Position numbers and translations under genes: made by a program. Positions 26,238-53,851 of a stretch of 64,000 nt of DNA are shown here, piece by piece. Origin of the DNA: an uncultured virus (IMG/VR IMGVR_UViG_3300027730_000821) (taxonomy: Duplodnaviria > Heunggongvirae > Uroviricota > Caudoviricetes); IMG/VR virus record IMGVR_UViG_3300027730_000821, positions 1-64,000 of that record. One strand, 5' to 3'. Numbering within the stretch: position 1 is the first letter of the stretch; each line of letters starts with the position of its first letter. The notes beneath the pieces were generated by a model that saw only the letters and a program-made list of their open reading frames with translations, did not search any database and had not been told where the DNA came from.

Positions 26238-26843
26238 TTAGAAAATAATAATCCAATCTTTAATTGAATCTAACTTTTTGCGAAACAGACAGCGCACTTT
26301 CTTAATGTTGATTCCGTACGCAAGTGAAAATTCACCGGGGGTAAGGGTGACTTCTTCACCTGTTCCTGTATTTCTAAAATGATACTGTGTGTGGTTATAT
26401 CTGGGATTATTTTTACCCACCTTACTTCTTTTAGTAAATTTGTCAGCAAAGTCGGTGTTAAAGGACCGGCCTTTGATCCAACCAATCGGTATAGAATCAT
26501 CTTGTTGTATCTTCTTATTAGTTGCCCCGTCTGTTATCCATATAGTACCGAATGAGGGATTGCGTGGCCCGGCGTTTGATATCTTAGCTAACCTAGATTT
26601 CTCTTTCGGGGACAAACTCATTCTTTTAGACATTATAAGGCAGGCTTTAAGATCACCTTGATTCAAATGGATTTGATAATGCTCTTTAATAGAGACACAT
26701 TGTAAGTTTTCAAGCGAGTTATTATTATGGTTACCGTCAATGTGGTGTATTTCGTAACTTCTATCCTCTTCATCAAAAGGAATAGGTCCAAAATGATTCT
26801 CATAAATTAAGCGATGGTACTGAGTACCACAATAAATACACAT
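26238..26843 (-). CDS. HNH homing endonuclease
   Basis: 'EIHHIDGNHNNNSLENLQCVSIKEH'; NUMOD-like 'NPSFG', 'WITDG' motifs. Confidence 0.85.
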   Translation of the reverse strand: MCIYCGTQYHRLIYENHFGPIPFDEEDRSYEIHHIDGNHNNNSLENLQCVSIKEHYQIHLNQGDLKACLIMSKRMSLSPKEKSRLAKISNAGPRNPSFGTIWITDGATNKKIQQDDSIPIGWIKGRSFNTDFADKFTKRSKVGKNNPRYNHTQYHFRNTGTGEEVTLTPGEFSLAYGINIKKVRCLFRKKLDSIKDWIIIF

Positions 26844-26912
26844 AGCTGATGCTCCTCTATAGCATTAGAGTAGTTGGGATTGCCTAGATCCGCGAACTAC
26901 ATCTATATTTAT
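26841..26912 (-). promoter_or_regulatory. Conserved structured leader of endonuclease gene, copy 1
   Basis: Minus strand: ATAAATA..GTAGTT CGC GGAT(loop)ATCC C AACTAC TCTAA TGCT(ATAGAGG)AGCA TCAGCT ATG. Confidence 0.8.
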
Positions 26913-26946
26913 GCCATAATGATAAATACTACATAAGGATAAAGTA

Positions 26947-27387
26947 ATGTTAGTAGATGACTTAAAAACATTGTTAGGAAGCACGTTTGTCTTGTACACT
27001 AAGATACACGGTTTCCATTTCAATGTTGAAGGTAGTGATTTCCCACAATACCATGAGTTTCTAGGCTCATTCTATTCAGAGGTATATGAATCAATCGACA
27101 CGGTGGGTGAGCATATACGCTCACTAGATTCCTATACTCCAGGTAACCTGTCTCGCCTATTGGAACTTAGTATAGTACGGGAACAACATAAAATACCGCG
27201 AGCGGCTTTGATGTTTGAAGAATTGTTGAGTGATTCATCTGATATGGTTGAATTAGTGAAAACTATATTTGACGTTGCTACTGAAACCCGAGAGCAAGGG
27301 ATAGCTAACTACATGGCGGATTTACAAGACTTATATTCTAAAAAAGTATGGATGCTTAGAAGTATCCTAAAGACTGCAAGGGCATAA
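26947..27387 (+). CDS. dps: Dps / ferritin-like protein
   Basis: 'HGFHFNVEG.DF..YH.F...Y.E....D..GE.IR', C-terminal 'KKVWML'. Confidence 0.88.
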   Translation: MLVDDLKTLLGSTFVLYTKIHGFHFNVEGSDFPQYHEFLGSFYSEVYESIDTVGEHIRSLDSYTPGNLSRLLELSIVREQHKIPRAALMFEELLSDSSDMVELVKTIFDVATETREQGIANYMADLQDLYSKKVWMLRSILKTARA

Positions 27388-27389
27388 CA

Positions 27390-28409: not shown

Positions 28410-28420
28410 AAAGGCTAGAC

Positions 28421-30624: not shown

Positions 30625-30627
30625 ACA

Positions 30628-31107: not shown

Positions 31108-31132
31108 CTTCGGAAACTAAGTTTGCTATAGT
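31104..31132 (+). promoter_or_regulatory. Sigma70-like promoter
   Basis: TTGACT-N17-TATAGT. Confidence 0.55.
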
Positions 31133-31187
31133 AAATTTACTAAGAGCATTTCGCTTCACTTTGATAAATAATACAAAGGATTAAGAC

Positions 31188-31514: not shown

Positions 31515-31539
31515 ATCTATTCGTGTTCCTATCAACTAG

Positions 31540-31571
31540 AAAGTGTCTCGGTGAAAACTGAGACACTTTTT
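31540..31571 (+). terminator. Rho-independent terminator
   Basis: AAAGTGTCTCGGT-GAAA-ACTGAGACACTTT plus T-run. Confidence 0.8.
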
Positions 31572-33124: not shown

Positions 33125-33382
33125 ATGTCTAGAGTATTCAATTCCGAAGCTAAACTAAAACTAACTAACTTAGTCCATGAAGGTATGGGTGTATTACAAG
33201 AGGTTGAGGCATTAAACGAAGGCCTCAATGACACAATTAAGGCAATCGCTGAGGAACTTGAGATCAAGCCAAGCACTCTCAAGAAAGCGATTAAAGTGGC
33301 TCATAAGGCTCGTTTGAATGAGACGAATGACGAAAACGCTGAACTAAATAATATCTTGGAGACTGTTGGTCGTACTGATTAA
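33125..33382 (+). CDS. Small helical DNA-binding protein (T4 DsbA/GapR-like, tentative)
   Basis: AAGGAG RBS before ATG 33125; 'IKAIAEELEIKPSTLKKAIKVAHK'. Confidence 0.5.
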   Translation: MSRVFNSEAKLKLTNLVHEGMGVLQEVEALNEGLNDTIKAIAEELEIKPSTLKKAIKVAHKARLNETNDENAELNNILETVGRTD

Positions 33383-35580
33383 TGTATATTGATGCGATAT
33401 TAGATAGCAATTCTGACCGCATTCGTGTAGTTGAGCGGGGCGCCGACGGGAAACGAGCGTATAAAGAATATCATACCAATTATGTTCTTTATTACCAGGA
33501 TCCTAAAGGGAAGCATCGCTCTATCTACGGTGATCCTGTAACTCGCTTCTCTAGCCGTAAACGCAGTGAGTTCGAAAAAGAGCGCAGGATTCATTCTAAT
33601 AAAAAGCTTTTCGAAAGTGATGTCAACGTAATTTTCAGATGTTTGTCTGAAAACTACCTAAGAGCAGAACCTCCAAAGCTTCACACTTGTTTCTTCGATA
33701 TTGAAGTGGACTTTGATCCTGAAAAGGGTTTCAGTCCAACTTCAGATCCATTCAATCCAGTAACAGCGATCAGTTGTTATCTAGATTGGTTGGATCAGCT
33801 TGTTACGTTAGTTATTCCACCGAAACACATGACGGATGAGACTGCCCAAGAACTGATCAAAGATTTCCCGAACACTTTCCTATATCGCAGTGAGATAGAA
33901 ATGTTCGAGACATTTTTTGATCTGATCGAAGATGCAGATGTATTGACTGGTTGGAACTCAGAAGGATACGACATTCCATATATGGTAAATCGTATTACTC
34001 GTGTGATGTCTAAAGATGATACTCGCAAGTTCTGCCTCATGGGACAACTACCAAAGACTCGCACATACGAGAGATTCGGTAAAGAAGAACAGACCTATGA
34101 TCTAGTTGGTAGAATTCATATGGACTATCTTCAATTGTATAAGAAGTATAACTACGAGTCACGACATAGTTATTCACTCGATGCTATCGGTGAATATGAA
34201 CTAGGCGAGCGCAAGACTCAGTATGAGGGCACACTGGATCAATTGTACAACCGAGACTTCAAAACTTTCGTAGAATACAACAGGCAAGACACTATGCTTG
34301 TATTCAAGATCCACAACAAACTCAAATTTCTTGATCTTGCGAATGCACTAGCGCATGAAAACACAGTACTGCTACCAACTGTTATGGGTTCGGTGGCCAT
34401 GATTGAAATGGCAGTTTATAATGAAGCACATGAACGAGGATTTATCGTCCCTGACAAGAAGCGTAGGGATTCGTTTAGTGACGGACAACAAGCAGCAGGT
34501 GCATATGTTGCTGTACCGAAGACGGGGATTCACGAATACGTCGGCGCAGTTGATATCAACTCACTCTACCCCTCTGCCATCAGAGCCCTTAACATGGCTC
34601 CAGAAACTATTATCGGGCAGGTTCGTCAAACACTTACTGATCAGTATATGCATGAAAAGAGTATTGCTCTTGCTAAAGAAAAGCGTAAGAAAAAGAACGG
34701 CGACGATGCAGAAGCTGTGATTGGTGCTATTCTTTGGGAAAACCTATTCGGTTCATTAGAATATACCGCTATCATGAACCAAGAACGCGGCACTATGCTC
34801 ACCATCGATTATGAAGATGGTCGATCAAAAGAGATGTCTGCTGCTGAAATTTGGAAGATGATTTTTGATAGTCACAAGCCTTATATGCTATCGGCGAACG
34901 GGACCATCTTTACCTATGAGAAAGAAGGCATTATTCCCGGATTGCTCTCACGTTGGTATTCTGAACGTAAAATACTTCAGAAGCAAGCTAAAGAAGCGTA
35001 TGGCACTGATATGTACGAATATTATGACAAGCGACAGCTTGTTCGTAAGATTTTGCTTAACTCTGCATACGGCGCGCTTCTCAATGAGCATTGTAGGTTC
35101 TATGATAAGCGTATCGGGCAGTCAGTTACGTTGTCCGGTAGACAGATCGTAAAGCACATGATGAGTCAGATCAACGAGACTATCACCGAAAAATATCAAC
35201 ATGACGGTGATGCAATCGTATACGGTGACAGTGTTACTGGTGATTCTATTATTAGAACAACCGATGGTGATAAAACAATAGCGCAACTTTTTGATGAGTG
35301 CATTGAGCATTCAGTTGTGGGTGAAAAAGAGTATGGAGTATGGAATGATTCCACTGTGCTTGGATTTAATTCACATGATATGCAACCTACTGGGGCAAAA
35401 ATTAGTTACGTTATGCGACATAAAACTAGGAAAAAACTTTATAAAATCACAACAGAGAACGGGAAACAGGTAACTGTCACTGAAGATCATAGTATAATGG
35501 TCGATCGGGATGGATTCTTAGTAGAATGTAAACCTAATGAAATTCTTGAAACTGATGGAATTATTACTTTTGTGCCATAA
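33382..35580 (+). CDS. DNA polymerase B, N-terminal part fused to split-intein N-fragment
   Basis: Exo motifs 'FDIEV', 'GWNSEGYDIPY', 'YNRQD'; 'DINSLYPS'; 'KILLNSAYG'; 'YGD|SVTGD' intein start at 35230; block B 'VTVTEDHSIM'. Confidence 0.93.
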   Translation: MYIDAILDSNSDRIRVVERGADGKRAYKEYHTNYVLYYQDPKGKHRSIYGDPVTRFSSRKRSEFEKERRIHSNKKLFESDVNVIFRCLSENYLRAEPPKLHTCFFDIEVDFDPEKGFSPTSDPFNPVTAISCYLDWLDQLVTLVIPPKHMTDETAQELIKDFPNTFLYRSEIEMFETFFDLIEDADVLTGWNSEGYDIPYMVNRITRVMSKDDTRKFCLMGQLPKTRTYERFGKEEQTYDLVGRIHMDYLQLYKKYNYESRHSYSLDAIGEYELGERKTQYEGTLDQLYNRDFKTFVEYNRQDTMLVFKIHNKLKFLDLANALAHENTVLLPTVMGSVAMIEMAVYNEAHERGFIVPDKKRRDSFSDGQQAAGAYVAVPKTGIHEYVGAVDINSLYPSAIRALNMAPETIIGQVRQTLTDQYMHEKSIALAKEKRKKKNGDDAEAVIGAILWENLFGSLEYTAIMNQERGTMLTIDYEDGRSKEMSAAEIWKMIFDSHKPYMLSANGTIFTYEKEGIIPGLLSRWYSERKILQKQAKEAYGTDMYEYYDKRQLVRKILLNSAYGALLNEHCRFYDKRIGQSVTLSGRQIVKHMMSQINETITEKYQHDGDAIVYGDSVTGDSIIRTTDGDKTIAQLFDECIEHSVVGEKEYGVWNDSTVLGFNSHDMQPTGAKISYVMRHKTRKKLYKITTENGKQVTVTEDHSIMVDRDGFLVECKPNEILETDGIITFVP

Positions 35581-35589
35581 CGCATAAAT

Positions 35590-35616
35590 ATATGCTGATA
35601 GGAGTATCAGCATATG
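35590..35616 (+). promoter_or_regulatory. RBS-sequestering hairpin of polymerase-embedded endonuclease
   Basis: ATATGCTGATA-GGAG-TATCAGCATAT 11-bp perfect stem just after ATAAATA. Confidence 0.7.
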
Positions 35617-37535: not shown

Positions 37536-37543
37536 CAACATCC

Positions 37544-44853: not shown

Positions 44854-44870
44854 CGGAATTTATCATATCA

Positions 44871-45083
44871 ATGGCCCAGCTAGACCTTCACGGTGTTAGA
44901 CACCAGGATGTTGATCTGTTAGTGGAGAACTTCGTTCTAATGAACCAGAATGAGTTCCCACTAACTATCATCTGCGGTAACAGCATTAAAATGATTAAGC
45001 TGGTTGAGAATACGATAAATAGGATTGGATGCGATGCAACTATGATCAGACATGGATTCATAGTTATTCAGCGTATCAAATAA
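44871..45083 (+). CDS. Small Smr-domain-like protein
   Basis: 'LDLHG' and 'IICGNS'. Confidence 0.55.
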   Translation: MAQLDLHGVRHQDVDLLVENFVLMNQNEFPLTIICGNSIKMIKLVENTINRIGCDATMIRHGFIVIQRIK

Positions 45084-45127
45084 ACAGCGGTCTTGGCGTC
45101 ATTCCCGCTTGACAAATTCTGCCGCCT
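45083..45127 (+). promoter_or_regulatory. Pseudoknot RNA motif, copy 1 (riboswitch candidate)
   Basis: AGCGG/CCGCT stem; loop GGCG pairs with downstream CGCC. Confidence 0.55.
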
Positions 45128-45155
45128 ATGTTATGCTAATATAGGAGATTAAAAT

Positions 45156-45303
45156 ATGGCAAATCAACCAGGCAACTATTATCAAATATGCTCGGAGAAG
45201 GATATCAGGATCATGGTCTTGATCTAAATCAGATTTATAATGCAGAAGGCTTTTGTGAAGTTGAGGATATCCTCAACTACATCAATCGTCGGTATGCTTA
45301 TTA
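45156..45303 (+). pseudogene. Possible gene remnant between the two pseudoknot copies
   Basis: Strong AGGAG RBS but only 23 codons (MANQPG...MVLI*); a different frame continues to ...INRRYAY*. Confidence 0.35.
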
Positions 45304-45350
45304 ACAGTGGTCTTTGACACTCATTCCCACTATAAACATTCTGCGTGTCA
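45303..45350 (+). promoter_or_regulatory. Pseudoknot RNA motif, copy 2, directly upstream of queD RBS
   Basis: AGTGG/CCACT stem; loop TGACAC pairs with GTGTCA, 4 nt before AAGGAG. Confidence 0.6.
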
Positions 45351-45367
45351 TCTAAAGGAGAAAAAAG

Positions 45368-45847
45368 ATGACAAAAAAATATGTATCAACTAAAGAATAT
45401 TCACACCTTGCGCCTCTGGCGTATCGGCAATGGCGAGCGGATAGTCACTGTCGTTTAATACACGGCTATGCATTGTCTTTCAAATTTGAATTTGAATGCG
45501 ATGACCTTGACGCCCGAAATTGGTGTTTTGATTACGGTGGGCTCCGGCCACTTAAGGATTTCCTAGAAGATAATTTTGACCACGTATTACTTTTAGCCCA
45601 AGATGATCCATACTATGATACCATTAAGCAACTAGGAGAATTAGGATTGGCAAAGATAATTGAGGTTGAAAAGACCGGATGCGAGGGACTTGCAGATTAC
45701 CTGTATGAATATGTGAATACTATTTTCCTTCCATCCTGCGGCGAGGCAGAGGCTGCAAGAGTTTGGTGTGCGAAAGTAGAAGTGAGAGAAACCCCATCAA
45801 ACATGGCATACAGGCAAGGCCATAGAGAAGACGGCGAGTTTCTATAA
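45368..45847 (+). CDS. queD: 6-carboxytetrahydropterin synthase
   Basis: 'SHCRLIHGY', 'DYGGL', 'FDH', 'EVRET..NMA'. Confidence 0.88.
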   Translation: MTKKYVSTKEYSHLAPLAYRQWRADSHCRLIHGYALSFKFEFECDDLDARNWCFDYGGLRPLKDFLEDNFDHVLLLAQDDPYYDTIKQLGELGLAKIIEVEKTGCEGLADYLYEYVNTIFLPSCGEAEAARVWCAKVEVRETPSNMAYRQGHREDGEFL

Positions 45848-45866
45848 TAGAATCAGTGGGGAATAA

Positions 45867-46565
45867 TTATTTATTTCCCGCTATTTTGCATTTATTTCCA
45901 TGCCATCTTTTATAATTTCCAGCATTAAGTCCTGACTTGCCGCAATATTCACACGAACGATTCTTTTGGTTTAGCTTATTTGCCAATGATTTATTTAAAG
46001 AATATTGTTTCTTTCTGGCCTCTGAGATTTTTGTTAAAATTTCAGGGGTCAGTATAGCACCAAATCTAGGATTGTTCTCTCCTTGCGAATGCTTTGTTCG
46101 GACGAACGTTTCTTTTCGTTTTAAATTTGCTGCATCCGATTGCATCAGGTTAACGAATCTATCTACCATAAATTTCCGAAATTCCGGATCCTCTTCCATG
46201 TGCCTCCGCCTACTTTTGTGACTATTCTTCCATGAAGAATCCGAGTAGTTGTCTGTTAAAATTGCTTTACTATCGGATTTATTAAGCCAATCTTCCTTAT
46301 ACACCGCCTTTACTCTTTTTATGTAAGTATGCTCATATAATCTACATTCTGCTGCTGTAGTAAAAGTACGATGAATAACAACTATATCTGGAGGCCCGTA
46401 CTTTTGCCAATGTTCATTGACACTAACTGACGATGTAGTATATCGACCGGTCAGTATGTTCTCTGGGTTAGCTTTTTTGCCGTACTGACAGCCATAATAT
46501 TTGGTATTGGTGCCTCGCCACATAATAAAGTAAGTATAGGGTGTAAAGACAGAATAAATAGACAT
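45867..46565 (-). CDS. GIY-YIG (Seg-like) homing endonuclease
   Basis: 'YTYFI...KYYG...YTTSS...YEH...WLNKS'; 'GENNPRFG'; C-terminal 'CEYCGK...RWHGNKC'. Confidence 0.75.
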   Translation of the reverse strand: MSIYSVFTPYTYFIMWRGTNTKYYGCQYGKKANPENILTGRYTTSSVSVNEHWQKYGPPDIVVIHRTFTTAAECRLYEHTYIKRVKAVYKEDWLNKSDSKAILTDNYSDSSWKNSHKSRRRHMEEDPEFRKFMVDRFVNLMQSDAANLKRKETFVRTKHSQGENNPRFGAILTPEILTKISEARKKQYSLNKSLANKLNQKNRSCEYCGKSGLNAGNYKRWHGNKCKIAGNK

Positions 46566-46632
46566 GCTGGTAGTTCCTTTTCAACTATTAGAGTGAGTGG
46601 GAATGGGAGTTCCGTGACTCACGCTTATTTAT
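46563..46632 (-). promoter_or_regulatory. Conserved structured leader of endonuclease gene, copy 2
   Basis: Minus strand: ATAAATA..GTGAGT CAC GGAA(loop)TTCC C ACTCAC TCTAA TAGTT(GAAAAGG)AACTA CCAGC ATG. Confidence 0.8.
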
Positions 46633-46640
46633 CTTTTTTC

Positions 46641-46669
46641 TTGACAACCTAACCTAAATAGTATATAAT
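46641..46669 (+). promoter_or_regulatory. Consensus sigma70 promoter
   Basis: TTGACA-N17-TATAAT. Confidence 0.75.
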
Positions 46670-46684
46670 AATTTATTGATATAA

Positions 46685-46731
46685 AAAGTATATAATGACT
46701 AAGAAAGTATATAATGACTAAGAAAGTATAT
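46685..46731 (+). repeat. 19-bp tandem repeat (about 2.5 copies) over the PRTase start
   Basis: AAAGTATATAATGACTAAG twice plus AAAGTATAT. Confidence 0.9.
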
Positions 46732-47268
46732 TACACTGACAAACAGATTGACGGTATGGTTCATAACATCATAAGACAGATTACTGTAGACCAGTTTCGA
46801 CCTGATTATGTTGTAGGCATTACCAGAGGAGGATTAGTTCCTGCTCTAATGATTAGCCATTATTTGAATATTCCAATGCATACACTAAAAGTCAGTTTGC
46901 GCAGCGATCCCCCTGATACTGAACTAAATGCCTGGATGTCTGAAGATGCATTTGGGTATGTTTCGTCGGATGATCGCCCTGTCATAAAAAGTCGTTGGGA
47001 TACCAAAAAGCGTAAAAATATCCTGATCGTGGATGACATCAATGATAGCGGCATGACCTTTGATTGGATTAAACAAGATTGGATTAATAGCTGCTTCCCG
47101 GATCAAAAAGAAGCTTGGGATTCAGTTTGGAATCATAATGTGAAGTTTGCTGTTTTGGTAGAGAACGAAGCAAGTGATTTTGAAGGAATCGACTATTTTG
47201 GGGAAGCCATAAACAAAATTGAAGATCCGGTCGCTATTCGATTTCCCTGGGAGCGGTGGTGGAAGTAG
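46714..47268 (+). CDS. Type I phosphoribosyltransferase (Gpt/Hpt-like)
   Basis: 'VVGITRGGLVPA', PRPP loop 'ILIVDDINDSGMT', 'FPWE'. Confidence 0.88.
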   Translation: MTKKVYYTDKQIDGMVHNIIRQITVDQFRPDYVVGITRGGLVPALMISHYLNIPMHTLKVSLRSDPPDTELNAWMSEDAFGYVSSDDRPVIKSRWDTKKRKNILIVDDINDSGMTFDWIKQDWINSCFPDQKEAWDSVWNHNVKFAVLVENEASDFEGIDYFGEAINKIEDPVAIRFPWERWWK

Positions 47269-47678
47269 TGAATATCGTTCCGTTATGTGACGAGCTAATG
47301 GTTCAACAACAGATTACATCCGAGTGGCAACATATGGTAGGGGTGATCATGCTGAACCAGACTCATAGGTTGTTGGTAAAAAGGGTCCTTCCTGAATTCT
47401 TATCTAGATGGGACACATGTGAGAAGTTCTTGACAAGTACGAGCGAAGAAGTATATGAAGTTATACGTCCGCTTGGATTAGTCATTGTTCGGGAAAACCG
47501 AATTAGAAGGATGTCCAATCAATACTTGACATGGGACAAGAGTGATGCTAAAGTTCTTTATGGTATAGGAAAGTATGGCAGTGATAGTTATGAGATTTTC
47601 TTTAAGAACAACTATGCTGTACAACCTACTGATAAAGAATTAGTGCGATACCTAAGAGAAGAATGCATAGATGCATAA
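47256..47678 (+). CDS. HhH-GPD DNA glycosylase (MBD4-like, minimal)
   Basis: 'IMLNQT', 'IRPLGL', HhH 'LYGIGKYGSDSY', 'PTDKEL'. Confidence 0.75.
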   Translation: MVEVVNIVPLCDELMVQQQITSEWQHMVGVIMLNQTHRLLVKRVLPEFLSRWDTCEKFLTSTSEEVYEVIRPLGLVIVRENRIRRMSNQYLTWDKSDAKVLYGIGKYGSDSYEIFFKNNYAVQPTDKELVRYLREECIDA

Positions 47679-47844
47679 TAAAATTGTGAATTATATAGAT
47701 GCTAAGAATGGTAGGCATTTGTATTCTATTCCTTTCTACGATCCAGATAACTTATATGAAGGTTGGATTTACAAATCGGGCGACAAATATAAGACATATG
47801 AAGAATATCTAAAAGAACGAGACAATGACGCAAATCAAGATTAG
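47671..47844 (+). CDS. Small hypothetical protein (57 aa, not in ORF track)
   Basis: Fills the gap with overlaps on both sides. Confidence 0.45.
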   Translation: MHNKIVNYIDAKNGRHLYSIPFYDPDNLYEGWIYKSGDKYKTYEEYLKERDNDANQD

Positions 47845-48679
47845 TGAACTATTTTATTCTATTCAGGGTGAAGGCAGGTATCAAGGCGTACCTAGCATTT
47901 TCCTAAGAACGTTTGGCTGCAACTTCACGTGTGGAGGATTTGGTATGCCTAAGGGAGAAACGTCTGTTGAACGGAAAAAGATCGACCCGAAAGTTTACAA
48001 AGATTACAATTCTCTCCCACTCGTCACCACTGGTTGCGATTCTTACGCCTCATGGGACCCTCGATTTAAGCATCTTTCTCCTAGTAAGGACATTGATACC
48101 ATTGTTGATGACATCATGGAACTACTACCGTTTAAAGAATGGAAAAACGAACATCTTGTCATCACAGGAGGAGAACCACTACTTGGATGGCAGCGAGCTT
48201 TCCCAAAACTCTTGAGTCATCCTAAGATGGCGGGTCTCAAAGAGATTACTTTTGAGACTAATGGTACACAGGAACTTTCACCTGAGTTCGCACACTATCT
48301 TGAAGACTGGAGCTGGCCAGAAGTATATCCGGGATTTGAACGAGAAATCACTTTTAGCGTCAGTCCTAAGTTAAGTTGTTCCGGTGAGTCTCATAAGAGT
48401 GCGATCAAACCTAAGGTTGTGCGTGAATATGAGAAATTTGGCTATGCATACCTCAAGTTTGTGATCTCTACAGAAGAAGATGCTCAGGAAGCACTTGAAG
48501 TATCTAAGCTATATCGTGATGAGGGTTTTGAGGGGCCTGTATATTTCATGCCCGTCGGTGGAGTAGAGAGTGTATATCAATTGAATAACCTTACAGTTGC
48601 CGAGTTAGCAATGAAGTATGGTGTCAGATATAGTGATCGACTACATCTACCTTTGTTTGGTAACCGCTGGGGAACGTAA
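47825..48679 (+). CDS. queE: 7-carboxy-7-deazaguanine synthase (radical SAM)
   Basis: 'ELFYSIQGEG', 'FLRTFGCNFTC...CDS', 'ITGGEP', 'ETNG', 'SVSPK', 'RLH'. Confidence 0.9.
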   Translation: MTQIKISELFYSIQGEGRYQGVPSIFLRTFGCNFTCGGFGMPKGETSVERKKIDPKVYKDYNSLPLVTTGCDSYASWDPRFKHLSPSKDIDTIVDDIMELLPFKEWKNEHLVITGGEPLLGWQRAFPKLLSHPKMAGLKEITFETNGTQELSPEFAHYLEDWSWPEVYPGFEREITFSVSPKLSCSGESHKSAIKPKVVREYEKFGYAYLKFVISTEEDAQEALEVSKLYRDEGFEGPVYFMPVGGVESVYQLNNLTVAELAMKYGVRYSDRLHLPLFGNRWGT

Positions 48680-48688
48680 AGGTAAAAT

Positions 48689-50032
48689 ATGAATACCTAT
48701 AACAAACGTATTGGATTTCTAGTCAGTTCTCAGACCTTAATTCCACACGGCGGAATAGGACAGTTCGCTAAGAGTTTCTGTGAAACGATGAATAGTCATG
48801 GAATTAAAGTAGATATCATAACCGACAAAGCTCCGCAAGGACTTAGCACAGAGTTCTTAGAATCATTCGATGCTAGGGTGATCTATCCAGACATCCCACT
48901 CAAGTATACCGATCATAGTGCTATCTTTATGTATGAAGATAGTTTTTGCTATGAAAGAATGGCCAATTTCCGTAATGCTATCGTTAAAGCATTCACTACC
49001 AACATCTATGACGTACTAGTATGTAATACCTATGAAACTATTCAAGTAGCGAGTACTATGGGACTTGATGAATGCGTACAGGTCATCGCATATACTCATC
49101 TTGAGAGTCAGATTTTCAAAGATACGAAGAATCCATTCTTTCATAGCACCAATGAGATGATGCGATTGCAGTTGCAGATGAATAACATCACTATCGGTAC
49201 ACAAAGCAAGTTCAATGAACTTCAGTTCGATAATACAGCTACTCATCTTCCTATTCCAGTAACTGAGAAAGAATTACTAAATCAGTACGTCAAGCCTAGA
49301 GAAGGTGTGTTGTTCATTGGACGTTGGGAAGAAGGGAAGAACCCCGAGTTGTTTATCGATCTGATCGAACAGACTAACTTGCCAGCTAAGGTAATGACAA
49401 GCGCAGCCGGAGCTAAGAAGTTTGAAGAACGATTGAAGAAAATCAATGCTACTTATGAGATCAAGGTGGGCATTATCGGCAAAGAAAAAGTAGACTTCAT
49501 CACGAGTGCTAGGATAGCATTTAACCCCAGCACAGTCGAAAGCTATGGTATGGCTTTCTATGAACAGACTATGCAATTACCTACTTTCTGCTTAATGAAT
49601 CAACGATGGACTCAAAACTTTTCTTCTCAGTTTTTCTTTGAAACCGACAAGAAAAACATGGCAAACGACGTGCGAGAGGCATATGAGATGTTCGATACCG
49701 CTGAAGCATGGTATATTAAGGGAGCTTTGGTAAATGCGAATAAGATCGAAAGCCAAGTGTTCCATAAATGGAATGAGTGTTTCAATTCATTCAAACCAAA
49801 AACGTCTAATAGCAATACGGCTAAGATTTGTAAAGAAACTACTATTAAGTACATAGATTTTATAAATGGATTGAATCGGGGTATCCTATGCATCGATGAC
49901 ATCAAGTCGGTGTTGATGAACAAGAATAAGTTTAGGGTGATTTATACAGATACCAATACATATCTGACTAAAGAACCCAACTTTGAACCAGCTGAGGAAA
50001 TGGTTGGATTGGGATTATTCGAGGGACTATGA
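48689..50032 (+). CDS. GT-B (group 1) glycosyltransferase
   Basis: 'HGGIG', 'LFIGRWEEGKNP', 'PSTVESYGMAFYE'. Confidence 0.8.
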   Translation: MNTYNKRIGFLVSSQTLIPHGGIGQFAKSFCETMNSHGIKVDIITDKAPQGLSTEFLESFDARVIYPDIPLKYTDHSAIFMYEDSFCYERMANFRNAIVKAFTTNIYDVLVCNTYETIQVASTMGLDECVQVIAYTHLESQIFKDTKNPFFHSTNEMMRLQLQMNNITIGTQSKFNELQFDNTATHLPIPVTEKELLNQYVKPREGVLFIGRWEEGKNPELFIDLIEQTNLPAKVMTSAAGAKKFEERLKKINATYEIKVGIIGKEKVDFITSARIAFNPSTVESYGMAFYEQTMQLPTFCLMNQRWTQNFSSQFFFETDKKNMANDVREAYEMFDTAEAWYIKGALVNANKIESQVFHKWNECFNSFKPKTSNSNTAKICKETTIKYIDFINGLNRGILCIDDIKSVLMNKNKFRVIYTDTNTYLTKEPNFEPAEEMVGLGLFEGL

Positions 50033-50880
50033 AAAAGATATTAGTAACAGGATGTTCGGGCTACATTGGATCACATCTTTGTAAATTGCTTGAGAAAGAT
50101 TACGAAGTATATGGACTTGACATTAGGCAGCCATTGCATCCAGTCAAGGAATTCTTTCAACTTGATATCAATCGTCCGTTGAATATTGATTTAGAATTCG
50201 ATATAGTTGTGCATCTTGCTGCACTTGTAAATGTTGGCGAGAGTGAAAATATGCCTATTCAGTATTATATTACTAATTTGAATGGGACGATGAATGTAAT
50301 CAATAAAGTAAAGACACAGAACTTTATTTTTGCATCGACCGGTGCAGCAGAACATTGCAAGAGTGCATATGGAATCTCGAAACGAGCAGCAGAAGATGTG
50401 GTTCGTGAATATTGTACCCAGCATAAGACTATGCCATATACGATTTTTAGATTCTATAACGTGATCGGTTCATCGGGTTATCCTCCTACTAATCCAGACG
50501 GGTTGATGTACAACCTGATGAAGGCTGCTGACACGAAAGAGTTTACTATTTTTGGTGATGATTATGATACCCCAGACGGTACCTGCATTCGAGATTATGT
50601 TCACGTAGACGAAGTATGTGAAGCAATCAAGATGGCTATCGAGCAACCTGCCAATAAAGTAGAATGCTTGGGTCATGGTGTAGGATATTCGGTACTGGAA
50701 ATCTTTGAGAAATTTGAAATGGTAAACGCAGAAACCATTTATTCTGATGATGACGAAGCAGGTATCAAGATAAAGATTGGACCCCGCAGAAAAGGGGACA
50801 TATCTTGTAGCGTACTAGAAGAAGTGTCCCCCTATATGAAAAATCTATATTCGTTTAACGAGTTGTTGAAACTTTCCTAA
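50029..50880 (+). CDS. NAD-dependent epimerase (GalE-like)
   Basis: 'TGCSGYIGSH', 'HLAA..NVGES', 'YGISK', 'RFYNV.G', 'DGTCIRDYVHV'. Confidence 0.9.
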   Translation: MKKILVTGCSGYIGSHLCKLLEKDYEVYGLDIRQPLHPVKEFFQLDINRPLNIDLEFDIVVHLAALVNVGESENMPIQYYITNLNGTMNVINKVKTQNFIFASTGAAEHCKSAYGISKRAAEDVVREYCTQHKTMPYTIFRFYNVIGSSGYPPTNPDGLMYNLMKAADTKEFTIFGDDYDTPDGTCIRDYVHVDEVCEAIKMAIEQPANKVECLGHGVGYSVLEIFEKFEMVNAETIYSDDDEAGIKIKIGPRRKGDISCSVLEEVSPYMKNLYSFNELLKLS

Positions 50881-52103
50881 TGCATTAATAGAAATGTGTT
50901 AAGCACGTCATTGCGGTTAGCAGAGTCATCTCCGTCTCCCGGTTTAACAATGACATTATACTTACCCTTTTCATTACTGACTGGCTTCTTCATCATCTCG
51001 TCATAGGTCAATATTGTATTAGGCTTGACACTATATTTAGCAGCGATTCGAGCCTTCAATACATTGATCGATGATTGATCTTTATATACGAGCTTACCTT
51101 CTACCCTATCAAGAACGTCTTTGAATAATACTTCAGGAACAACTCGGCTATTCTTAGTAGTTGCGAAATCGATCTGTTGTTCTTCTTTGGGCTTCGCGCC
51201 CATCGAGTAATTCATTTTAAAATTAGCCGGAGATTTACCTTGAGCAACGTTTGCTAATTTAGTATACGCATAGAAAGATACGTCAGGATACTTCTTAGCT
51301 AAGGTATACGCATAGTTAAGGTATTCCGGTGAGAAGAAATCACCAGCATCATGCCAACGAATGATAAGTTTAGTTTCAGTACCTTTCTTCTTATCGACTT
51401 TTTTTAGCTTTTTATATTGTTCTTCGATCTCGTTTCCTAGCATATCCATGAATCCTTGCGGATCATTATACAAGAAGTTCAATAGCTTAGACTGTTCGAG
51501 TGATGGGCTCGTCCACCTGATATAGTCACCTTTCATTGCATAGCAATATGTCTGGCATTCGCCGGCGCCAGGACAAGTGTCAATGATCACGAACTCACCG
51601 GTATCTTCATCAACTGCTAGGCCTTTCAGAGCAGGAAGTCCAATGTTGTAAAACGCACTAGCAGTACCATCACTATGTTGCATCTTTTCATTTTGCTTGA
51701 GAACTTTTGCCGGACGTTTGGTAATCATAGCTCTTAGCTTTTCTAGATCATATTCTTTATTTGCTTCATCGACGATGGGAACATTCTTATTATGAATGTA
51801 TGGCATATTGAACTTATCTTGTTTAGTCTTTTCACTCTTGCGAATCTTGCCGCCTGCTTTGTTGACCTTGCCTGTATCGGTACCTACAGTCCTGCTTAAG
51901 TATTTTGTTAATTCGTCTTTTGGAAAAGGTCTTGCGGGGGCCGCTAATTTTGCTTCGTCAATTTCTACTTCTTGTGGGTTTACCCCTGCACTGAGAAGAA
52001 AATCTTCAAGAGACATCGCCGGCAACCCACCCGAAACAGGTGTTTTTTGCTTGACAGGCCGAGAATTTTCACTTATGATATCTAAGATGTTACGAATATC
52101 CAT
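50877..52103 (-). CDS. GP88-like Fe-S / radical-SAM-like protein
   Basis: 'TCPGAGECQTYCYA', 'RWHDAGDFFS', 'FYAYTK'. Confidence 0.65.
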   Translation of the reverse strand: MDIRNILDIISENSRPVKQKTPVSGGLPAMSLEDFLLSAGVNPQEVEIDEAKLAAPARPFPKDELTKYLSRTVGTDTGKVNKAGGKIRKSEKTKQDKFNMPYIHNKNVPIVDEANKEYDLEKLRAMITKRPAKVLKQNEKMQHSDGTASAFYNIGLPALKGLAVDEDTGEFVIIDTCPGAGECQTYCYAMKGDYIRWTSPSLEQSKLLNFLYNDPQGFMDMLGNEIEEQYKKLKKVDKKKGTETKLIIRWHDAGDFFSPEYLNYAYTLAKKYPDVSFYAYTKLANVAQGKSPANFKMNYSMGAKPKEEQQIDFATTKNSRVVPEVLFKDVLDRVEGKLVYKDQSSINVLKARIAAKYSVKPNTILTYDEMMKKPVSNEKGKYNVIVKPGDGDDSANRNDVLNTFLLMH

Positions 52104-52136
52104 TAACGGTTCCTTATATTATGAGAGTATTTATCT

Positions 52137-53153
52137 ATGAATGATGGTGTCAAACGAATTGGTTTCGCATGTAAGTTTGCAGAAATCAATACTAAGGGTG
52201 AGATCGCTAGTGTCGATGGATTCAACACAGGCGGTACCACACTCGCATGGGCAAAACGTCAGAACAACTCACGTGTGGTCGAAGAAAAGATCCTAGATGT
52301 CGCAAAGCGTAACATCCTAAACACTCACGCACTCGTCAAAAAAATTGCGACTCTTCCTGTCGAACTACGCATGTTGCGTATCACCAGTGATATGTTGAGT
52401 TTCTACACGCATCCCGATTATCATTATTTTTGGTCGCGGCAAGATGTGCAAGACAGTCTAGCACGTTGGATGGCTCCGATTGGTGAGACTGCACGCAAGA
52501 ACAGTGTCCGTCTATCATTTCATCCCGATCAATTTGTAGTCCTTGCTAGTGATCGCGAAGAAGTCGTAGAAAACAGTATCCGAGAATTCGAATATCATGT
52601 TGACATGGCACGTTGGATGGGCTATGGCAAGACTTTTCAGGACATGAAGATCAATGTTCATATCAGTGGTCGTCAGGGCCCCGACGGTATCAAGAAGGTA
52701 ATGTCTCGACTAAGCCCCGAGGCTCGTAATTGCATCACTATCGAGAATGACGAGATGACTTGGGGTATCGATAGCAGTCTAGAACTCGCTGATACCTGCG
52801 CTCTCGTACTAGATATCCATCATCACTATGTAATGACTGGTGAATATATCGAACCCAATGACGACCGTATCAAGCGCGTGATCGATAGCTGGCGTGGTGT
52901 ACGTCCTGTCATTCATTACAGTGTAAGTCGTGAAGAATATTTGTCATCACATCTTACTAATGAATTGCCTAACCTTCAACTTCTGCTAGAACAAGGGTTG
53001 AACAAGCAGAAGTTGCGGGCACATTCTGACTATATGTGGAATAAAGCAGTCAATGATTGGGCTAAAGGGCACTGGGATTGGGCAGATGTTATGGTGGAGG
53101 CAAAGGCCAAGAACCTAGCTAGCTTTAGATTGTATGATTATTGGAAGAGCTAA
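52137..53153 (+). CDS. uvdE: UV-damage endonuclease
   Basis: 'IGFAC', 'RLSFHPDQFVVL', 'IENDE', 'LVLDIHHH', 'HYS', 'AHSD', 'MVEAKAK'. Confidence 0.9.
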   Translation: MNDGVKRIGFACKFAEINTKGEIASVDGFNTGGTTLAWAKRQNNSRVVEEKILDVAKRNILNTHALVKKIATLPVELRMLRITSDMLSFYTHPDYHYFWSRQDVQDSLARWMAPIGETARKNSVRLSFHPDQFVVLASDREEVVENSIREFEYHVDMARWMGYGKTFQDMKINVHISGRQGPDGIKKVMSRLSPEARNCITIENDEMTWGIDSSLELADTCALVLDIHHHYVMTGEYIEPNDDRIKRVIDSWRGVRPVIHYSVSREEYLSSHLTNELPNLQLLLEQGLNKQKLRAHSDYMWNKAVNDWAKGHWDWADVMVEAKAKNLASFRLYDYWKS

Positions 53154-53783
53154 ATTATATAACTCTGTTTCTTTCTTTATCTTACATATAACGCCAGTAG
53201 AGATACCTGTTAGTTTTGAAATTTCTCGTATTCGGTGATTGCTTTTTTCTAGCAAATCAAGTGCTAACCTTAGATTTTCGCCCCTGTTTTTATATTTTGC
53301 TACTATAATAGATAATTTTCTCTTGTCGGTGCAGGATATTTTTTTCCCATACATTCCGTTCCTTTCGCCTTTTTTAGCTTTTGATAAATTTTTACGCCAA
53401 ACATCATTCCTAGGAATGCCTGCTAATGATTCTGATCTTTTCTTTAAGGTATCTTCACTTGGTTTCCAGCCTAATTTAGACGGAGGTTTTGTTCCGCCTT
53501 TATTAGCATTCCATCCTATGTTTTTTTCAGGTCTTAGTATTTCCTCTTGTCTGTAACAATTTTCTTTGGTGTCGGTCAACAATATTGTTTGGATTATTTT
53601 ATCTTGATGTTTTTTGAGGACTCTACCGAAATAAGGATTTTTGTCGTTGCGGTTTTTAGAATCATTCTTATGCTCGTAAAGTCGTCTGGCTGGGTTATTA
53701 GAAACGCCTATGTACCCTTCCTTAGTGTAGTCAGTATGCTCTGGAAGATGAATCCAATAAAGATGGTGGGTATAAATAGTCAT
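53115..53783 (-). CDS. GIY-YIG homing endonuclease (likely start 53783, MTIY)
   Basis: 'LYWI...GYIGVSNNPARRLYEH...E...GWN...GG'; NUMOD3-like repeats; C-terminal HTH. Confidence 0.8.
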   Translation of the reverse strand: MTIYTHHLYWIHLPEHTDYTKEGYIGVSNNPARRLYEHKNDSKNRNDKNPYFGRVLKKHQDKIIQTILLTDTKENCYRQEEILRPEKNIGWNANKGGTKPPSKLGWKPSEDTLKKRSESLAGIPRNDVWRKNLSKAKKGERNGMYGKKISCTDKRKLSIIVAKYKNRGENLRLALDLLEKSNHRIREISKLTGISTGVICKIKKETELYNLALPIIIQSKAS

Positions 53784-53851
53784 GCTGATCGCTCCTCTTA
53801 GCATTAGAGTAGTTGGGTATTTGCAGTACCGCGAACTACATCTTTATTTAT
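53781..53851 (-). promoter_or_regulatory. Conserved structured leader of endonuclease gene, copy 3
   Basis: Minus strand: ATAAATA..GTAGTT CGC GGTA(loop)TACC C AACTAC TCTAA TGCT(AAGAGG)AGCG ATCAGC ATG. Confidence 0.8.

What the first reader, a model, noticed from the sequence alone, without database searches (positions are those of the whole stretch)
26832..53851. Shared covarying two-hairpin leader in front of three dissimilar antisense homing endonucleases
Seen: an HNH gene (26238-26843) and two divergent GIY-YIG-type genes (45867-46565, 53115-53783), all antisense to the surrounding operons, share a ~70-nt upstream element (26841-26912, 46563-46632, 53781-53851). On the minus strand it reads ATAAATA, outer stem GTAGTT/AACTAC (GTGAGT/ACTCAC in copy 2), C(G/A)C-over-C internal loop, inner stem GGAT/ATCC, GGAA/TTCC or GGTA/TACC, invariant TCTAA, a second stem TGCT/AGCA, TAGTT/AACTA or TGCT/AGCG overlapping the AGG(A) RBS, then CAGC and ATG. 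All three stems show compensatory changes while the proteins do not align. Established: T4 homing endonucleases are restrained by late promoters and RBS hairpins. Inference: this is a portable structured RNA module (translational switch, protein-binding site or mobility-associated RNA) that travels independently of nuclease family. I do not recognise it as a named RNA family.
Basis: partly seen in the sequence, partly recalled or inferred. Interest (0 to 1): 0.88.

Follow-up and report, generated by a model that had tools for sequence, protein, structure and literature searches.

The report
Shared sense–antisense leader of homing endonucleases
Selfish DNA-cutting genes of several unrelated families in giant lake-water phages all carry the same ~85-base control module, whose conserved hairpins fit best on the strand opposite the gene, so it probably encodes a small antisense RNA that restrains the nuclease.

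Summary
The 72.5-kb record has exactly three copies. Two pattern scans of viral contigs gave 140 distinct aligned relatives, and five jumbo-phage records carry 1-13 copies each. Covariation is strong: 94.7% of hairpin-1 cells pair, against 71% when shuffled. No Rfam family matches. Every downstream ORF that could be named is a homing endonuclease (GIY-YIG, HNH or DUF7487).

The interpretation needs one change. The structure fits the strand opposite the nuclease gene better:
- A·C "mismatches" outnumber G·U 71 to 11.
- The same 19 pairs are 98.7% paired on the antisense strand and 90.1% on the sense strand.
- The "invariant" TCTAAT and CAGC are arms of an 8-9-bp antisense helix.
- TATTTAT in codons 2-4 is held at nucleotide level and is ATAAATA, the late-promoter motif, on the other strand.

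Best reading: two convergent late promoters give the nuclease mRNA and a ~68-nt cis-antisense RNA covering its leader and start codon. This resembles IS10 RNA-OUT or IS200 art200. Neither transcript has been observed.

The parts
26238..26843 (-). Homing endonuclease gene 1 (HNH_3), begins M-C-I-Y
   Evidence: Pfam HNH_3 E 2.8e-13; PHROG intron-like DNA endonuclease
26906..26912 (-). ATAAATA, late-promoter-like 7-mer for nuclease gene 1; its complement is the U-rich tail of the putative antisense RNA
   Evidence: the same 7-mer sits 17-30 nt upstream of many other ATGs in the record
26832..26838 (+). ATAAATA on the opposite strand (complement of TATTTAT in codons 2-4 of the nuclease gene): putative promoter of antisense RNA 1
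   Evidence: nucleotide-level constraint shown
26844..26912 (+). Putative antisense RNA 1: HP2' 26846-26868, HP1' 26870-26900, tail AUCUAUAUUUAU 26901-26912
   Evidence: fold; model R2 85.4 bits. The start is inferred, not mapped
45867..46565 (-). Homing endonuclease gene 2 (SegE/GIY-YIG-like by transitive similarity only), begins M-S-I-Y
   Evidence: no direct family hit; E 5e-13 to L118
46626..46632 (-). ATAAATA, late-promoter-like 7-mer for nuclease gene 2
46554..46560 (+). ATAAATA on the opposite strand: putative promoter of antisense RNA 2
46566..46632 (+). Putative antisense RNA 2: HP2' 46567-46591 (9 bp), HP1' 46593-46622, then GCUUAUUUAU and a further U-run
   Evidence: fold; R2 77.0 bits
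53115..53783 (-). Homing endonuclease gene 3 (GIY-YIG + NUMOD3), begins M-T-I-Y
   Evidence: PHROG homing endonuclease
53845..53851 (-). ATAAATA, late-promoter-like 7-mer for nuclease gene 3
53772..53778 (+). ATAAATA on the opposite strand: putative promoter of antisense RNA 3
53784..53851 (+). Putative antisense RNA 3: HP2' 53785-53807, HP1' 53809-53839, tail AUCUUUAUUUAU
   Evidence: fold; R2 78.2 bits
46641..46669 (+). Sigma-70-type promoter (TTGACA-17-TATAAT, 12 of 12) facing away from nuclease gene 2 towards gene 46714; abuts the module
   Evidence: a similar divergent -35 lies 7-10 nt from the 7-mer in 23 of 139 relatives
53860..53889 (+). Sigma-70-type promoter (TTGACA-18-TAGTAT) facing away from nuclease gene 3; nuclease-less variants rejoin the window at 53888

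Best explanation
The element is a self-contained, portable expression-control module of free-standing homing endonuclease genes in uncultured freshwater jumbo phages that have T4-type replication and late-transcription genes.

It is bounded by two copies of the late-promoter 7-mer ATAAATA that face each other. The outer one drives the nuclease mRNA. The inner one lies inside codons 2-4 of the nuclease gene and drives an RNA from the opposite strand.

That antisense RNA would start near the G of GCUG, the complement of the conserved CAGC. It folds into an 8-9-bp hairpin whose loop carries the complement of the nuclease's Shine-Dalgarno sequence. One base later comes an 11-bp hairpin with two bulged Gs. 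The RNA then runs into the U-rich complement of the outer promoter (ACUUUUAUUUAU). If it stops there it is about 68 nt long and complementary to the whole 5' leader of the nuclease mRNA up to the start codon.

I infer that it pairs with the leader, beginning with loop-loop contacts between mirror-image hairpins. This would block ribosome binding or trigger decay, keeping a potentially harmful nuclease low. It would work like the antisense RNAs of IS10 and IS200, which restrain their transposases.

Shown: the family, its covariation, its tie to nucleases, the strand asymmetry, and the nucleotide-level constraint on the inner 7-mer.

Inferred: both promoters' activity, the transcript ends, and the repressive effect.
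For: 1. Family and structure. 140 distinct elements were aligned. Hairpin 1 is 94.7% paired against 71.0% in shuffles and 35-45% when slid. There are 359 double-change cells against 88 expected, with 35 outer-stem and 33 inner-stem combinations. In the scan that did not specify hairpin 1, 105 of 105 distinct hits carry it.

2. Strand.
- In hairpin 1, non-Watson-Crick cells are A·C 71, G·U 11, other 10.
- In the 90 sequences whose hairpin 1 was not part of the search pattern, the counts are A·C 42 and G·U 10. Leaving out the R:Y pair and the loop-closing pair gives A·C 23 and G·U 0.
- The same 42 loci and the same 19 pairs are 98.7% paired on the antisense strand and 90.1% on the sense strand. 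For hairpin 2 alone the figures are 99.7% and 83.0%.
- ViennaRNA finds the antisense strand more stable in 124 of 140 (hairpin-2 region, mean -4.98 vs -2.22 kcal/mol) and 132 of 140 (hairpin-1 region, -12.48 vs -9.71).
- RNAalifold on its own predicts my 19 pairs on the antisense alignment (-22.45 kcal/mol) and only 14 on the sense alignment (-16.1).
- In 77 distinct model-aligned sequences, 99.2% of cells pair, and 149 of them are G·U.

3. This reading explains the 'invariant' spacers. CTAAT and A[T/C]CAG are the outer arms of the antisense helix. The only common polymorphism (T/C; AT 96, AC 39) is A-U versus G·U on the antisense strand. L220 and L225 show double compensatory changes there.

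4. Inner promoter. 48 of 51 elements found by hairpin 1 alone have start codon + NN + TA[T/C][T/A]TAT. The 3 exceptions keep the 7-mer in another reading frame. Codon 2 ends in T in 48 of 48, against 33% in the ORF bodies. Codon 3 is ATT in 42 of 48, against 41%. Codon 4 is TAT in 48 of 48, against 73%.

5. ATAAATA is promoter-like across the record. A gp55-like late sigma factor is found in 4 of 4 large records that carry the element. NATAAATA is the reported late promoter of T4-like cyanophages (PMC2984593, passages).

6. Orientation to neighbours is mixed: the upstream gene is co-oriented in 35 contexts, opposed in 23 and unknown in 5, of 63. The module therefore works as a unit of its own.

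7. The five elements without a TAAATA on the nuclease strand have A-rich stretches at that position, 5-6-base A-runs in three of them (U-runs on the antisense strand).

8. Truncated nuclease ORFs keep an intact module (L013, L056, L227, L231, L244).
Against: - No transcript has been seen. No RNA holder of this DNA is on record, and the only possibly-RNA run is kept as contigs.
- The transcription starts rest on my recalled T4 spacing (about 6 nt after the 7-mer).
- The consensus terminator scan did not flag hairpin 1' plus tail at copies 2 and 3. The hairpin has bulges, and the U-tract starts after 'AC' and is interrupted by A.
- The region beyond the 7-mer is not generally U-rich. The antisense RNA may therefore not end there.
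- The sense strand still forms most of the structure (90-95% of cells), so the mRNA leader may be functional too.
- Ten G·U cells at the loop-closing pair favour the sense strand.
- Both search patterns fixed CTCTAAT, and scan 1 fixed the single C opposite C-R-C, which inflates some A·C counts. The set-2-only count controls for the second point.
- Alignments A4 and A6 are fitted to a model.
- Repression by the antisense RNA is argued by analogy only.
Confidence: 0.5

Rival explanations
1. A sense-strand mRNA leader acting in cis. Hairpin 1 sits at the very 5' end of the late transcript and stabilises it or binds a phage protein. Hairpin 2 half-buries the Shine-Dalgarno sequence and damps translation. 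The invariant bulged Cs are a protein contact.
For: [quoted passage not shown] The sense strand keeps 94.7% of hairpin-1 cells paired. A 4-bp hairpin 2 of at least 4 pairs is found in 117 of 140, with mean best stem 3.94 against 3.32 +/- 0.05 after head-shuffling. Both bulged Cs are invariant in 140. The stem base lies 3 or 5 nt plus T after the 7-mer, near the expected start. T4-family nucleases are known to be controlled by leader hairpins (PMC2988022 and PMC3014915, passages).
Against: A·C outnumbers G·U 71 to 11, and 23 to 0 in the cleanest subset. On the sense strand the conserved CTAAT/ATCAG stretches have no explanation and hairpin 2 is only -2.2 kcal/mol. This reading does not explain the nucleotide-level constraint on TATTTAT. 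The bulged Cs are equally bulged Gs on the other strand.
Confidence: 0.22
2. The opposite-strand promoter and structure serve the neighbouring genes, not the nuclease. The cassette brings an outward late promoter and a structured 5' UTR so that its insertion does not silence the gene next door ('promoter restoration').
For: In the window all three nuclease genes oppose their neighbours, so the inner promoter points at ferritin (26947), the phosphoribosyltransferase gene (46714) and ORF 53913. Promoter displacement by invading endonuclease genes is a recognised cost (PMC2988022, passage).
Against: The upstream neighbour is co-oriented with the nuclease gene in 35 of the 58 contexts that could be scored. 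There the transcript would run antisense into a gene's 3' end. The ferritin gene has its own ATAAATA at 26922. Genes 46714 and 53913 have their own sigma-70-type promoters. Conservation stops at the outer 7-mer.
Confidence: 0.1
3. A DNA-level element. It would be a repeated homology block, or a hairpin in single-stranded DNA, that lets nuclease cassettes swap by recombination. This would resemble the PeSL promoter/stem-loop repeats of T4-like phages or integron attC sites; the RNA structure would be incidental.
For: The same block precedes unrelated ORFs and includes their first four codons. There are up to 13 copies per genome. One lake contig joins copy 2's leader (46580) to copy 3's (53799), which may be a natural chimera or an assembly artefact. 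PeSLs are reported to mediate such shuffling (PMC4122927, abstract). G·T is also the mildest mismatch in DNA (recalled).
Against: Homology-driven conversion predicts sequence identity, not 35 different outer stems kept complementary. The block is framed by promoter motifs on both strands and holds a ribosome binding site. No recombinase is linked to it.
Confidence: 0.08

Closest known systems
IS10 RNA-IN/RNA-OUT and IS200 tnpA/art200 (cis-antisense RNAs that restrain transposase translation)
   Same: A mobile element's own DNA-cutting or DNA-moving enzyme gene has an RNA encoded opposite its 5' UTR and start region. IS200 combines this with mRNA secondary structure (PMC4513863 and PMC5006887, abstracts in the search listing). 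The convergent promoters, the stable antisense stem-loop and action across copies are recalled for IS10.
   Different: The gene here is a homing endonuclease, not a transposase. The host is a phage, and both promoters are T4-type late motifs. The RNA has two hairpins and no sequence or model similarity: Rfam families such as RNA-OUT give no match on either strand. Nothing has been shown experimentally.
T4-family control of homing endonucleases by a late promoter plus an RBS-sequestering hairpin (I-TevI, I-TevII, I-TevIII, segB, Aeh1 mobE)
   Same: Late promoter directly upstream, RNA structure at the ribosome binding site, and the aim of keeping nuclease expression low and late (PMC2988022 and PMC3014915, passages).
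   Different: In those systems each hairpin is idiosyncratic and very stable, and the promoter lies within its 5' arm, so late transcripts escape. Here one covarying module is shared by more than 100 genes of different families. The promoter lies upstream of both hairpins. Predicted Shine-Dalgarno/AUG access does not differ between transcript forms. The structure favours the other strand. The window does contain one classical case, at 35584-35616.
CfrI antisense RNA of cyanophage S-PM2
   Same: An antisense RNA in a T4-like phage that runs opposite a homing endonuclease gene and is co-expressed with it (PMC2984593, passage).
   Different: CfrI is about 225 nt, links the nuclease gene to psbA, is a single case and has no known function. 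Here the RNA would be about 68 nt, cover only the leader and start codon, and form a large family. No sequence relationship was tested.
PeSL (promoter-early stem-loop) repeats of T4-like phages
   Same: Short repeated regulatory cassettes (promoter plus stem-loop) that flank unrelated ORFs and are thought to let them shuffle (PMC4122927, abstract).
   Different: PeSLs are early promoter/terminator composites in hyperplastic regions and are not specific to nucleases. This module uses late-type 7-mers, includes the ribosome binding site and the first four codons, and shows stem covariation.
Type I toxin-antitoxin pairs with 5'-overlapping antisense RNA (e.g. SymE/SymR) and phage P22 sar
   Same: A small RNA made from a promoter just inside or next to the target's start region, complementary to its ribosome binding site, holding down a harmful protein (recalled, not from a call).
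   Different: No similarity to those RNAs (Rfam). The nuclease here is not known to be toxic to the phage. There is no evidence for the differential RNA stability that defines a toxin-antitoxin pair.

Membership tests
Any Rfam 15 family (including RNA-OUT, SymR, sar, HEARO, riboswitches, small ribozymes) | Match to the family's covariance model at or near its gathering score | tested here: not met
   0 matches at gathering score in the whole window. At E<=10 over 26000-54500, both strands, there are 4 matches. Only SNORA73 (16.7 bits, gathering score 74) overlaps a copy, which is noise.
T4-type late-promoter / RBS-hairpin control (I-TevI, mobE type) | T4-type late promoter immediately upstream of the nuclease ORF | tested here: met
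   [A/C]TAAATA is present in 140 of 145 distinct elements and 101 of 105 in set 2. The motif is used record-wide. A gp55-like sigma factor is found in 4 of 4 large records. Promoter activity was not tested.
T4-type late-promoter / RBS-hairpin control (I-TevI, mobE type) | Stable hairpin that sequesters the Shine-Dalgarno sequence | tested here: inconclusive
   Sense hairpin 2 has only 4-5 bp and a mean of -2.2 kcal/mol. Predicted unpaired probability of the Shine-Dalgarno sequence is about 0.5.
T4-type late-promoter / RBS-hairpin control (I-TevI, mobE type) | Late promoter lies within the 5' arm, so late transcripts cannot form the inhibitory structure | tested here: not met
   The 7-mer lies upstream of both hairpins. 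The only candidate long-range helix (ATAAATA with TATTTAT) has a mean pair probability above 0.5 in 39 of 131. AUG and Shine-Dalgarno access is the same in both forms: 0.39 vs 0.42 and 0.49 vs 0.51.
Cis-antisense RNA control of a mobile-element gene (IS10 RNA-OUT / IS200 art200 kind) | Promoter on the opposite strand at or just inside the 5' end of the target ORF | tested here: met
   ATAAATA on the opposite strand at codons 2-4 in 48 of 51 unbiased elements. It is held against synonymous drift. This is motif evidence only.
Cis-antisense RNA control of a mobile-element gene (IS10 RNA-OUT / IS200 art200 kind) | The antisense transcript itself is a conserved, stably folded RNA | tested here: met
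   98.7% against 90.1% paired. A·C 71 against G·U 11. RNAalifold gives 19 pairs at -22.45 against 14 pairs at -16.1 kcal/mol.
Cis-antisense RNA control of a mobile-element gene (IS10 RNA-OUT / IS200 art200 kind) | Defined 3' end (terminator) giving a small RNA | tested here: inconclusive
   Hairpin 1' is followed by ACUUUUAUUUAU. The consensus terminator scan did not flag it. Sequence beyond the 7-mer is not U-rich in general.
Cis-antisense RNA control of a mobile-element gene (IS10 RNA-OUT / IS200 art200 kind) | The antisense RNA is made and lowers expression of the target | not testable with these tools
   No RNA holder of this DNA is listed. The runs that were laid are contigs, without strand or ends.
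PeSL repeats | Sigma-70-type early promoter joined to a terminator stem-loop, repeated between unrelated ORFs | tested here: not met
   The module's own promoters are late-type 7-mers. A divergent sigma-70-like promoter abuts it in only 23 of 139. Repetition before unrelated ORFs is met.

The most novel reading that the evidence does not exclude
The module is a family-wide brake on selfish nucleases. Every homing endonuclease cassette in these jumbo phages carries its own antisense RNA. The loop that mirrors the Shine-Dalgarno sequence and the start region (CAGCAUG) are shared by all copies, so each RNA would also damp the other cassettes in the genome (up to 13). This would amount to multicopy inhibition for homing endonucleases. 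Modules that outlive their decayed nuclease genes would persist as stand-alone 'antidote' RNA genes. The phage, or the nucleases collectively, would thereby cap total nuclease load.
Probability: 0.2. Interest if true: 0.85.

Novelty: new variant of a known kind. Interest (0 to 1): 0.72.

Why it matters
How free-standing homing endonucleases are kept harmless to the phages that carry them is only known case by case in T4 and a few relatives, where each gene has its own hairpin.

Here a single portable control module has been adopted by at least three unrelated nuclease families. It is present up to 13 times in one genome and has been kept through many compensatory changes.

If the antisense reading is right, three things follow:
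- It would be the first RNA family dedicated to controlling homing endonucleases.
- It would be a new abundant class of phage small RNA.
- It would be a natural parallel to the antisense copy control of insertion sequences.

It also gives a clean test: synonymous codon changes would remove one promoter without touching the protein. As a caution for motif hunters, the strand that carries the gene is not necessarily the strand that carries the structure.

Tried and rejected
- Rfam at gathering score and at E<=10: nothing relevant.
- Cultured phages: megablast of 12 kb and blastn of one element gave no match. Model R1 against PA5oct, Phosso, KP13-7, Atu_ph07 and T4 gave 0 of 5 at a meaningful E; the best was 0.275 in Atu_ph07.
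- T4-style 'promoter inside the hairpin' through an ATAAATA:TATTTAT long-range helix: weak (39 of 131) and without predicted effect on access. Rejected as the main mechanism.
- RegA-type repressor: PF01818 found in 0 of 5 records. The control genomes did not ring either, so this search says little.
- Late promoter at the 3' end of the nuclease ORFs (cassette with outward promoters at both ends): only 8 of 99.
- Extended U-run beyond the outer 7-mer: not general.
- Genome-specific hairpin-1 sequences, which would point to a co-evolving factor: not seen. G001 and G002 mix stem classes.
- Host inference from prokaryote bins: 16 pattern matches. Nine are true elements on small contigs binned with unrelated phyla, and seven are chance matches without hairpin or ORF. 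No host can be named.
- Expression: no RNA holder is listed. The one possibly-RNA run is contigs only.
- Literature: searches for a shared leader or antisense RNA of homing endonucleases found only the T4 reviews, PeSL papers and the CfrI report. Subscription papers (for example Gibb & Edgell, J Bacteriol 2009) are not held.
- A possible match of UCUAAU to a 16S rRNA loop, and a C-loop-like reading of the 3x1 internal loop, were considered from memory only and dropped as untestable here.

Full report
**What is in the window.** Each reads:
- ATAAATA, then 4-5 bases;
- a 6-bp outer stem, C-R-C opposite a single C, a 4-bp inner stem and a 6-7-base loop;
- TCTAAT, then a small hairpin around AGGA;
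- (A)YCAGC, then ATG NNT ATT TAT.

Single-sequence folding recovers hairpin 1 in all three, but the energies are ordinary (z -0.2 to -1.3). The downstream genes are HNH_3 (26238-26843) and GIY-YIG + NUMOD3 (53115-53783). The third gene (45867-46565) has no direct family hit. Its N-terminal domain resembles a relative with a sub-threshold SegE_GIY-YIG hit. A covariance model finds exactly these three copies in the window (filters off) and in the whole 72.5-kb record.

**What organism.** The record is a virus fragment from lake water, estimated 21% complete. It encodes:
- a clamp loader, a split family-B DNA polymerase, PhoH, DnaJ, Cpn10, a Lon-like protease, ferritin and UvdE;
- a GTP cyclohydrolase I / QueD / QueE cluster.

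Its polymerase is nearest (47%) to jumbo phages such as PA5oct, Phosso and Atu_ph07. ATAAATA lies 17-30 nt upstream of many start codons in the record. A gp55-like late sigma factor is present in 4 of 4 large related records. NATAAATA is the reported late promoter of T4-like cyanophages (PMC2984593, passages). I therefore read the 7-mer as a T4-type late promoter. This rests on motif evidence only.

**The family.** I ran two pattern scans of viral contigs.
- A pattern taken only from hairpin 1 found 95 loci, 52 of them distinct. Of these, 51 carry the whole downstream part: small hairpin, CAGC, start codon and TATTTAT. L020 is a remnant.
All 105 distinct ones with full flanks carry hairpin 1, and 101 of 105 carry [A/C]TAAATA.

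After removing duplicates, 140 distinct elements were aligned. My parser required C-R-C followed by G or C, which dropped a few variants such as L157. Five further elements lack the 7-mer.

The structure statistics are as follows.
- Hairpin 1 is paired in 94.7% of 1,540 cells, against 71.0% in shuffles and 35-45% when the partner is slid. There are 359 double-change cells against 88 expected.
- There are 35 outer-stem and 33 inner-stem combinations.
- Both bulged Cs are invariant.
- Model searches of five large records found 13, 8, 4, 3 and 1 copies. Three of the five are rated 100% complete, two of them with terminal repeats (349-364 kb).
- The element is absent from the four nearest cultured jumbo phages and from T4, and from Rfam.

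**Tie to nucleases.** I took 99 representative complete ORFs downstream of the element.
- 48 have homing-endonuclease-type Pfam hits at E<=0.001. These are 12 GIY-YIG/SegE, 14 HNH/HNH_3, 2 DUF7487, and 20 with only NUMOD3, I-TevI or I-HmuI DNA-binding modules. Some of these scores lie under Pfam's own cut-off.
- 1 has other weak hits, and 50 have none.

In the model-based sample from whole records there are 29 ORFs: 9 HNH_3, 8 NUMOD3, 12 with no hit (3 of these truncated), and none from a non-nuclease family. Residues 5-105 fall into 14 BLAST-unlinked groups. All begin M-x-I-Y or a near variant. Orientation to neighbours is mixed: the upstream gene is co-oriented in 35 contexts, opposed in 23 and unknown in 5. 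The 'antisense to the operon' feature of the window is therefore not general.

**The turn: which strand?** Three observations did not fit an mRNA leader.

First, TATTTAT after the start codon is constrained as nucleotides, not as amino acids.
- Codon 2 ends in T in 48 of 48 in-frame cases, although it encodes ten different residues. The background for T at third positions is 33%.
- Codon 3 is ATT in 42 of 48 (background 41% of Ile codons).
- Codon 4 is TAT in 48 of 48 (background 73%).
- The three out-of-frame exceptions still keep the 7-mer.

TATTTAT is ATAAATA on the other strand.

Second, the non-Watson-Crick cells of hairpin 1 are mostly A·C (71) rather than G·U (11). In the 90 sequences whose hairpin was not part of the search pattern, the counts are 42 and 10. 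Leaving out the R:Y pair and the loop-closing pair gives 23 and 0. An A·C on one strand is a G·U on the other.

Third, on the opposite strand the 'invariant' spacers become helix. CUG[A/G]U-NNN pairs with NNN-AUUAG, giving 8-9 bp where the sense strand has 4.
- With the same 42 loci and the same 19 pairs, 98.7% of cells pair on the antisense strand and 90.1% on the sense strand. For hairpin 2 alone the figures are 99.7% and 83.0%. This holds even though those loci had been picked for sense pairing of the inner 4 bp.
- ViennaRNA finds the antisense strand more stable in 124 of 140 (hairpin-2 region) and 132 of 140 (hairpin-1 region).
- RNAalifold, given no structure, returns my 19 pairs on the antisense alignment (-22.45 kcal/mol) and only 14 on the sense alignment (-16.1).
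- A model built on the antisense strand aligns 77 distinct sequences with 99.2% pairing and 149 G·U cells. That alignment is fitted to the model.

**How it most likely works.** Two late-promoter 7-mers face each other across about 70 bp. The outer one gives the nuclease mRNA. The inner one, inside codons 2-4, would give an RNA that starts near GCUG. That start assumes initiation about 6 nt after the 7-mer, a spacing I recall for T4 late promoters.

The RNA folds into HP2', whose loop carries the complement of the Shine-Dalgarno sequence. One base later it folds into HP1', with two bulged Gs around a G-C, A-U or G·U pair. It then runs into ACUUUUAUUUAU, the complement of the outer promoter. If it ends there it is about 68 nt and mirrors the entire 5' leader.

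Mirror-image hairpins with complementary 7-base loops are the classical set-up for kissing-loop antisense control (recalled). Antisense RNAs opposite the 5' UTR are known to restrain the IS10 and IS200 transposases (abstracts). An antisense RNA opposite a homing endonuclease gene has been seen once, in S-PM2.

I put this reading at about 0.5. The structure and strand evidence is strong. The transcripts, their ends and the repressive effect are inferred.

Points against:
- The terminator scan did not flag the site.
- Sequence beyond the 7-mer is not U-rich.
- The sense leader still folds.
- No RNA data exist.

**Other observations bearing on it.**
- The T4-type scheme, with the late promoter inside the inhibitory hairpin, does not fit.
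- The five elements without the outer 7-mer have A-rich stretches at that position, 5-6-base A-runs in three of them (U-runs on the antisense strand).
- Truncated nuclease ORFs keep intact modules.
- Lake metagenome contigs include variants lacking cassette 3 that rejoin at 53888 in two runs. They also include variants in which 45171-46759 is replaced by 533 other bases, and the leader recruits many contigs, with depth 216 at 53790 in one run.
- In 23 of 139 elements a sigma-70-type promoter facing away from the nuclease gene lies 7-10 nt from the outer 7-mer.

**Verdict.** The element is best described as a new family of sense/antisense control modules for homing endonucleases: a new variant of a known kind of regulation. 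It awaits transcript mapping.

Noticed in passing
window 33382-37535 (+), hairpin at 35584-35616: The family-B DNA polymerase is split into 33382-35580 and 36552-37535 by ORF 35614-36576 (320 aa, PHROG 22677, no Pfam family). This ORF is preceded by ATAAATA and a strong hairpin (UGCUGAUA-GGAG-UAUCAGCA extended to 12 bp, -14.3 kcal/mol, z -5.4) that buries GGAG and the AUG. The 7-mer sits 2 nt from the 5' arm, the classical T4 I-TevI/mobE layout. Its 3' arm (GGAGTATCAGCAT) resembles the family's ribosome-binding region. It recalls seg43 of Aeromonas phage 25 (PMC2988022).
   Followed up: partly
window 60417-63103 (+): The DNA ligase ORF 62141-63103 starts with an intein splicing motif (PF14890, residues 5-39). 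Just upstream, ORF 61290-61739 matches the N-terminal part of DUF7487 and has a plain ATAAATA promoter without the two-hairpin module. This may be a ligase gene interrupted by an intein or nuclease insertion.
   Followed up: no
window 44173-50880 (+): A gene cluster suggesting 7-deazaguanine-type DNA modification and glycosylation: GTP cyclohydrolase I, QueD/PTPS, a phosphoribosyltransferase, an HhH-GPD protein, QueE, glycosyltransferases and an epimerase. Nuclease cassette 2 is inserted between QueD and the phosphoribosyltransferase.
   Followed up: no
window 46641-46669 and 53860-53889 (+); 23 of 139 related loci: Sigma-70-type promoters (TTGACA-17-TATAAT) face away from the nuclease gene, with the -35 box at a fixed 7-10 nt from the outer late 7-mer. 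Nuclease-less variants rejoin at 53888, inside the -10 box. The cassette may therefore carry part of this promoter, or insert at a fixed place next to it.
   Followed up: partly
L013, L056, L227, L231, L244 and others (10 of 117 complete ORFs under 60 aa): Nuclease ORFs cut short by early stops still have a full-scoring control module (for example L056, 97.4 bits, the best score of all). The module may outlive the gene.
   Followed up: partly
window 46580 joined to 53799 in run X11: One lake metagenome contig joins the leader of copy 2 to the leader of copy 3 with one extra base. It is either a natural recombinant within the module or an assembly artefact at a repeat (table 5c).
   Followed up: no
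L030, L045, L174, L183, L197: Five elements have both hairpins and the ORF but no TAAATA on the nuclease strand. L030, L045 and L174 carry a 5-6-base A-run at that position instead; L183 and L197 are only A-rich.
   Followed up: partly
window 5810-13489 and 26947-27387 (+): The phage carries its own Cpn10, DnaJ, a Lon-like ATP-dependent protease (PHROG 4871, E 5e-231), PhoH and a ferritin-like protein. This is an unusually rich proteostasis and stress set.
   Followed up: no
L259-L274 (prokaryote genome collection): Nine true elements lie on small contigs binned into MAGs of unrelated phyla (Bacteroidetes, Geobacteraceae, Nitrosarchaeum, Thiobacillus, Dechloromonas and others). These are most likely phage contigs mis-binned into those genomes.
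   Followed up: partly
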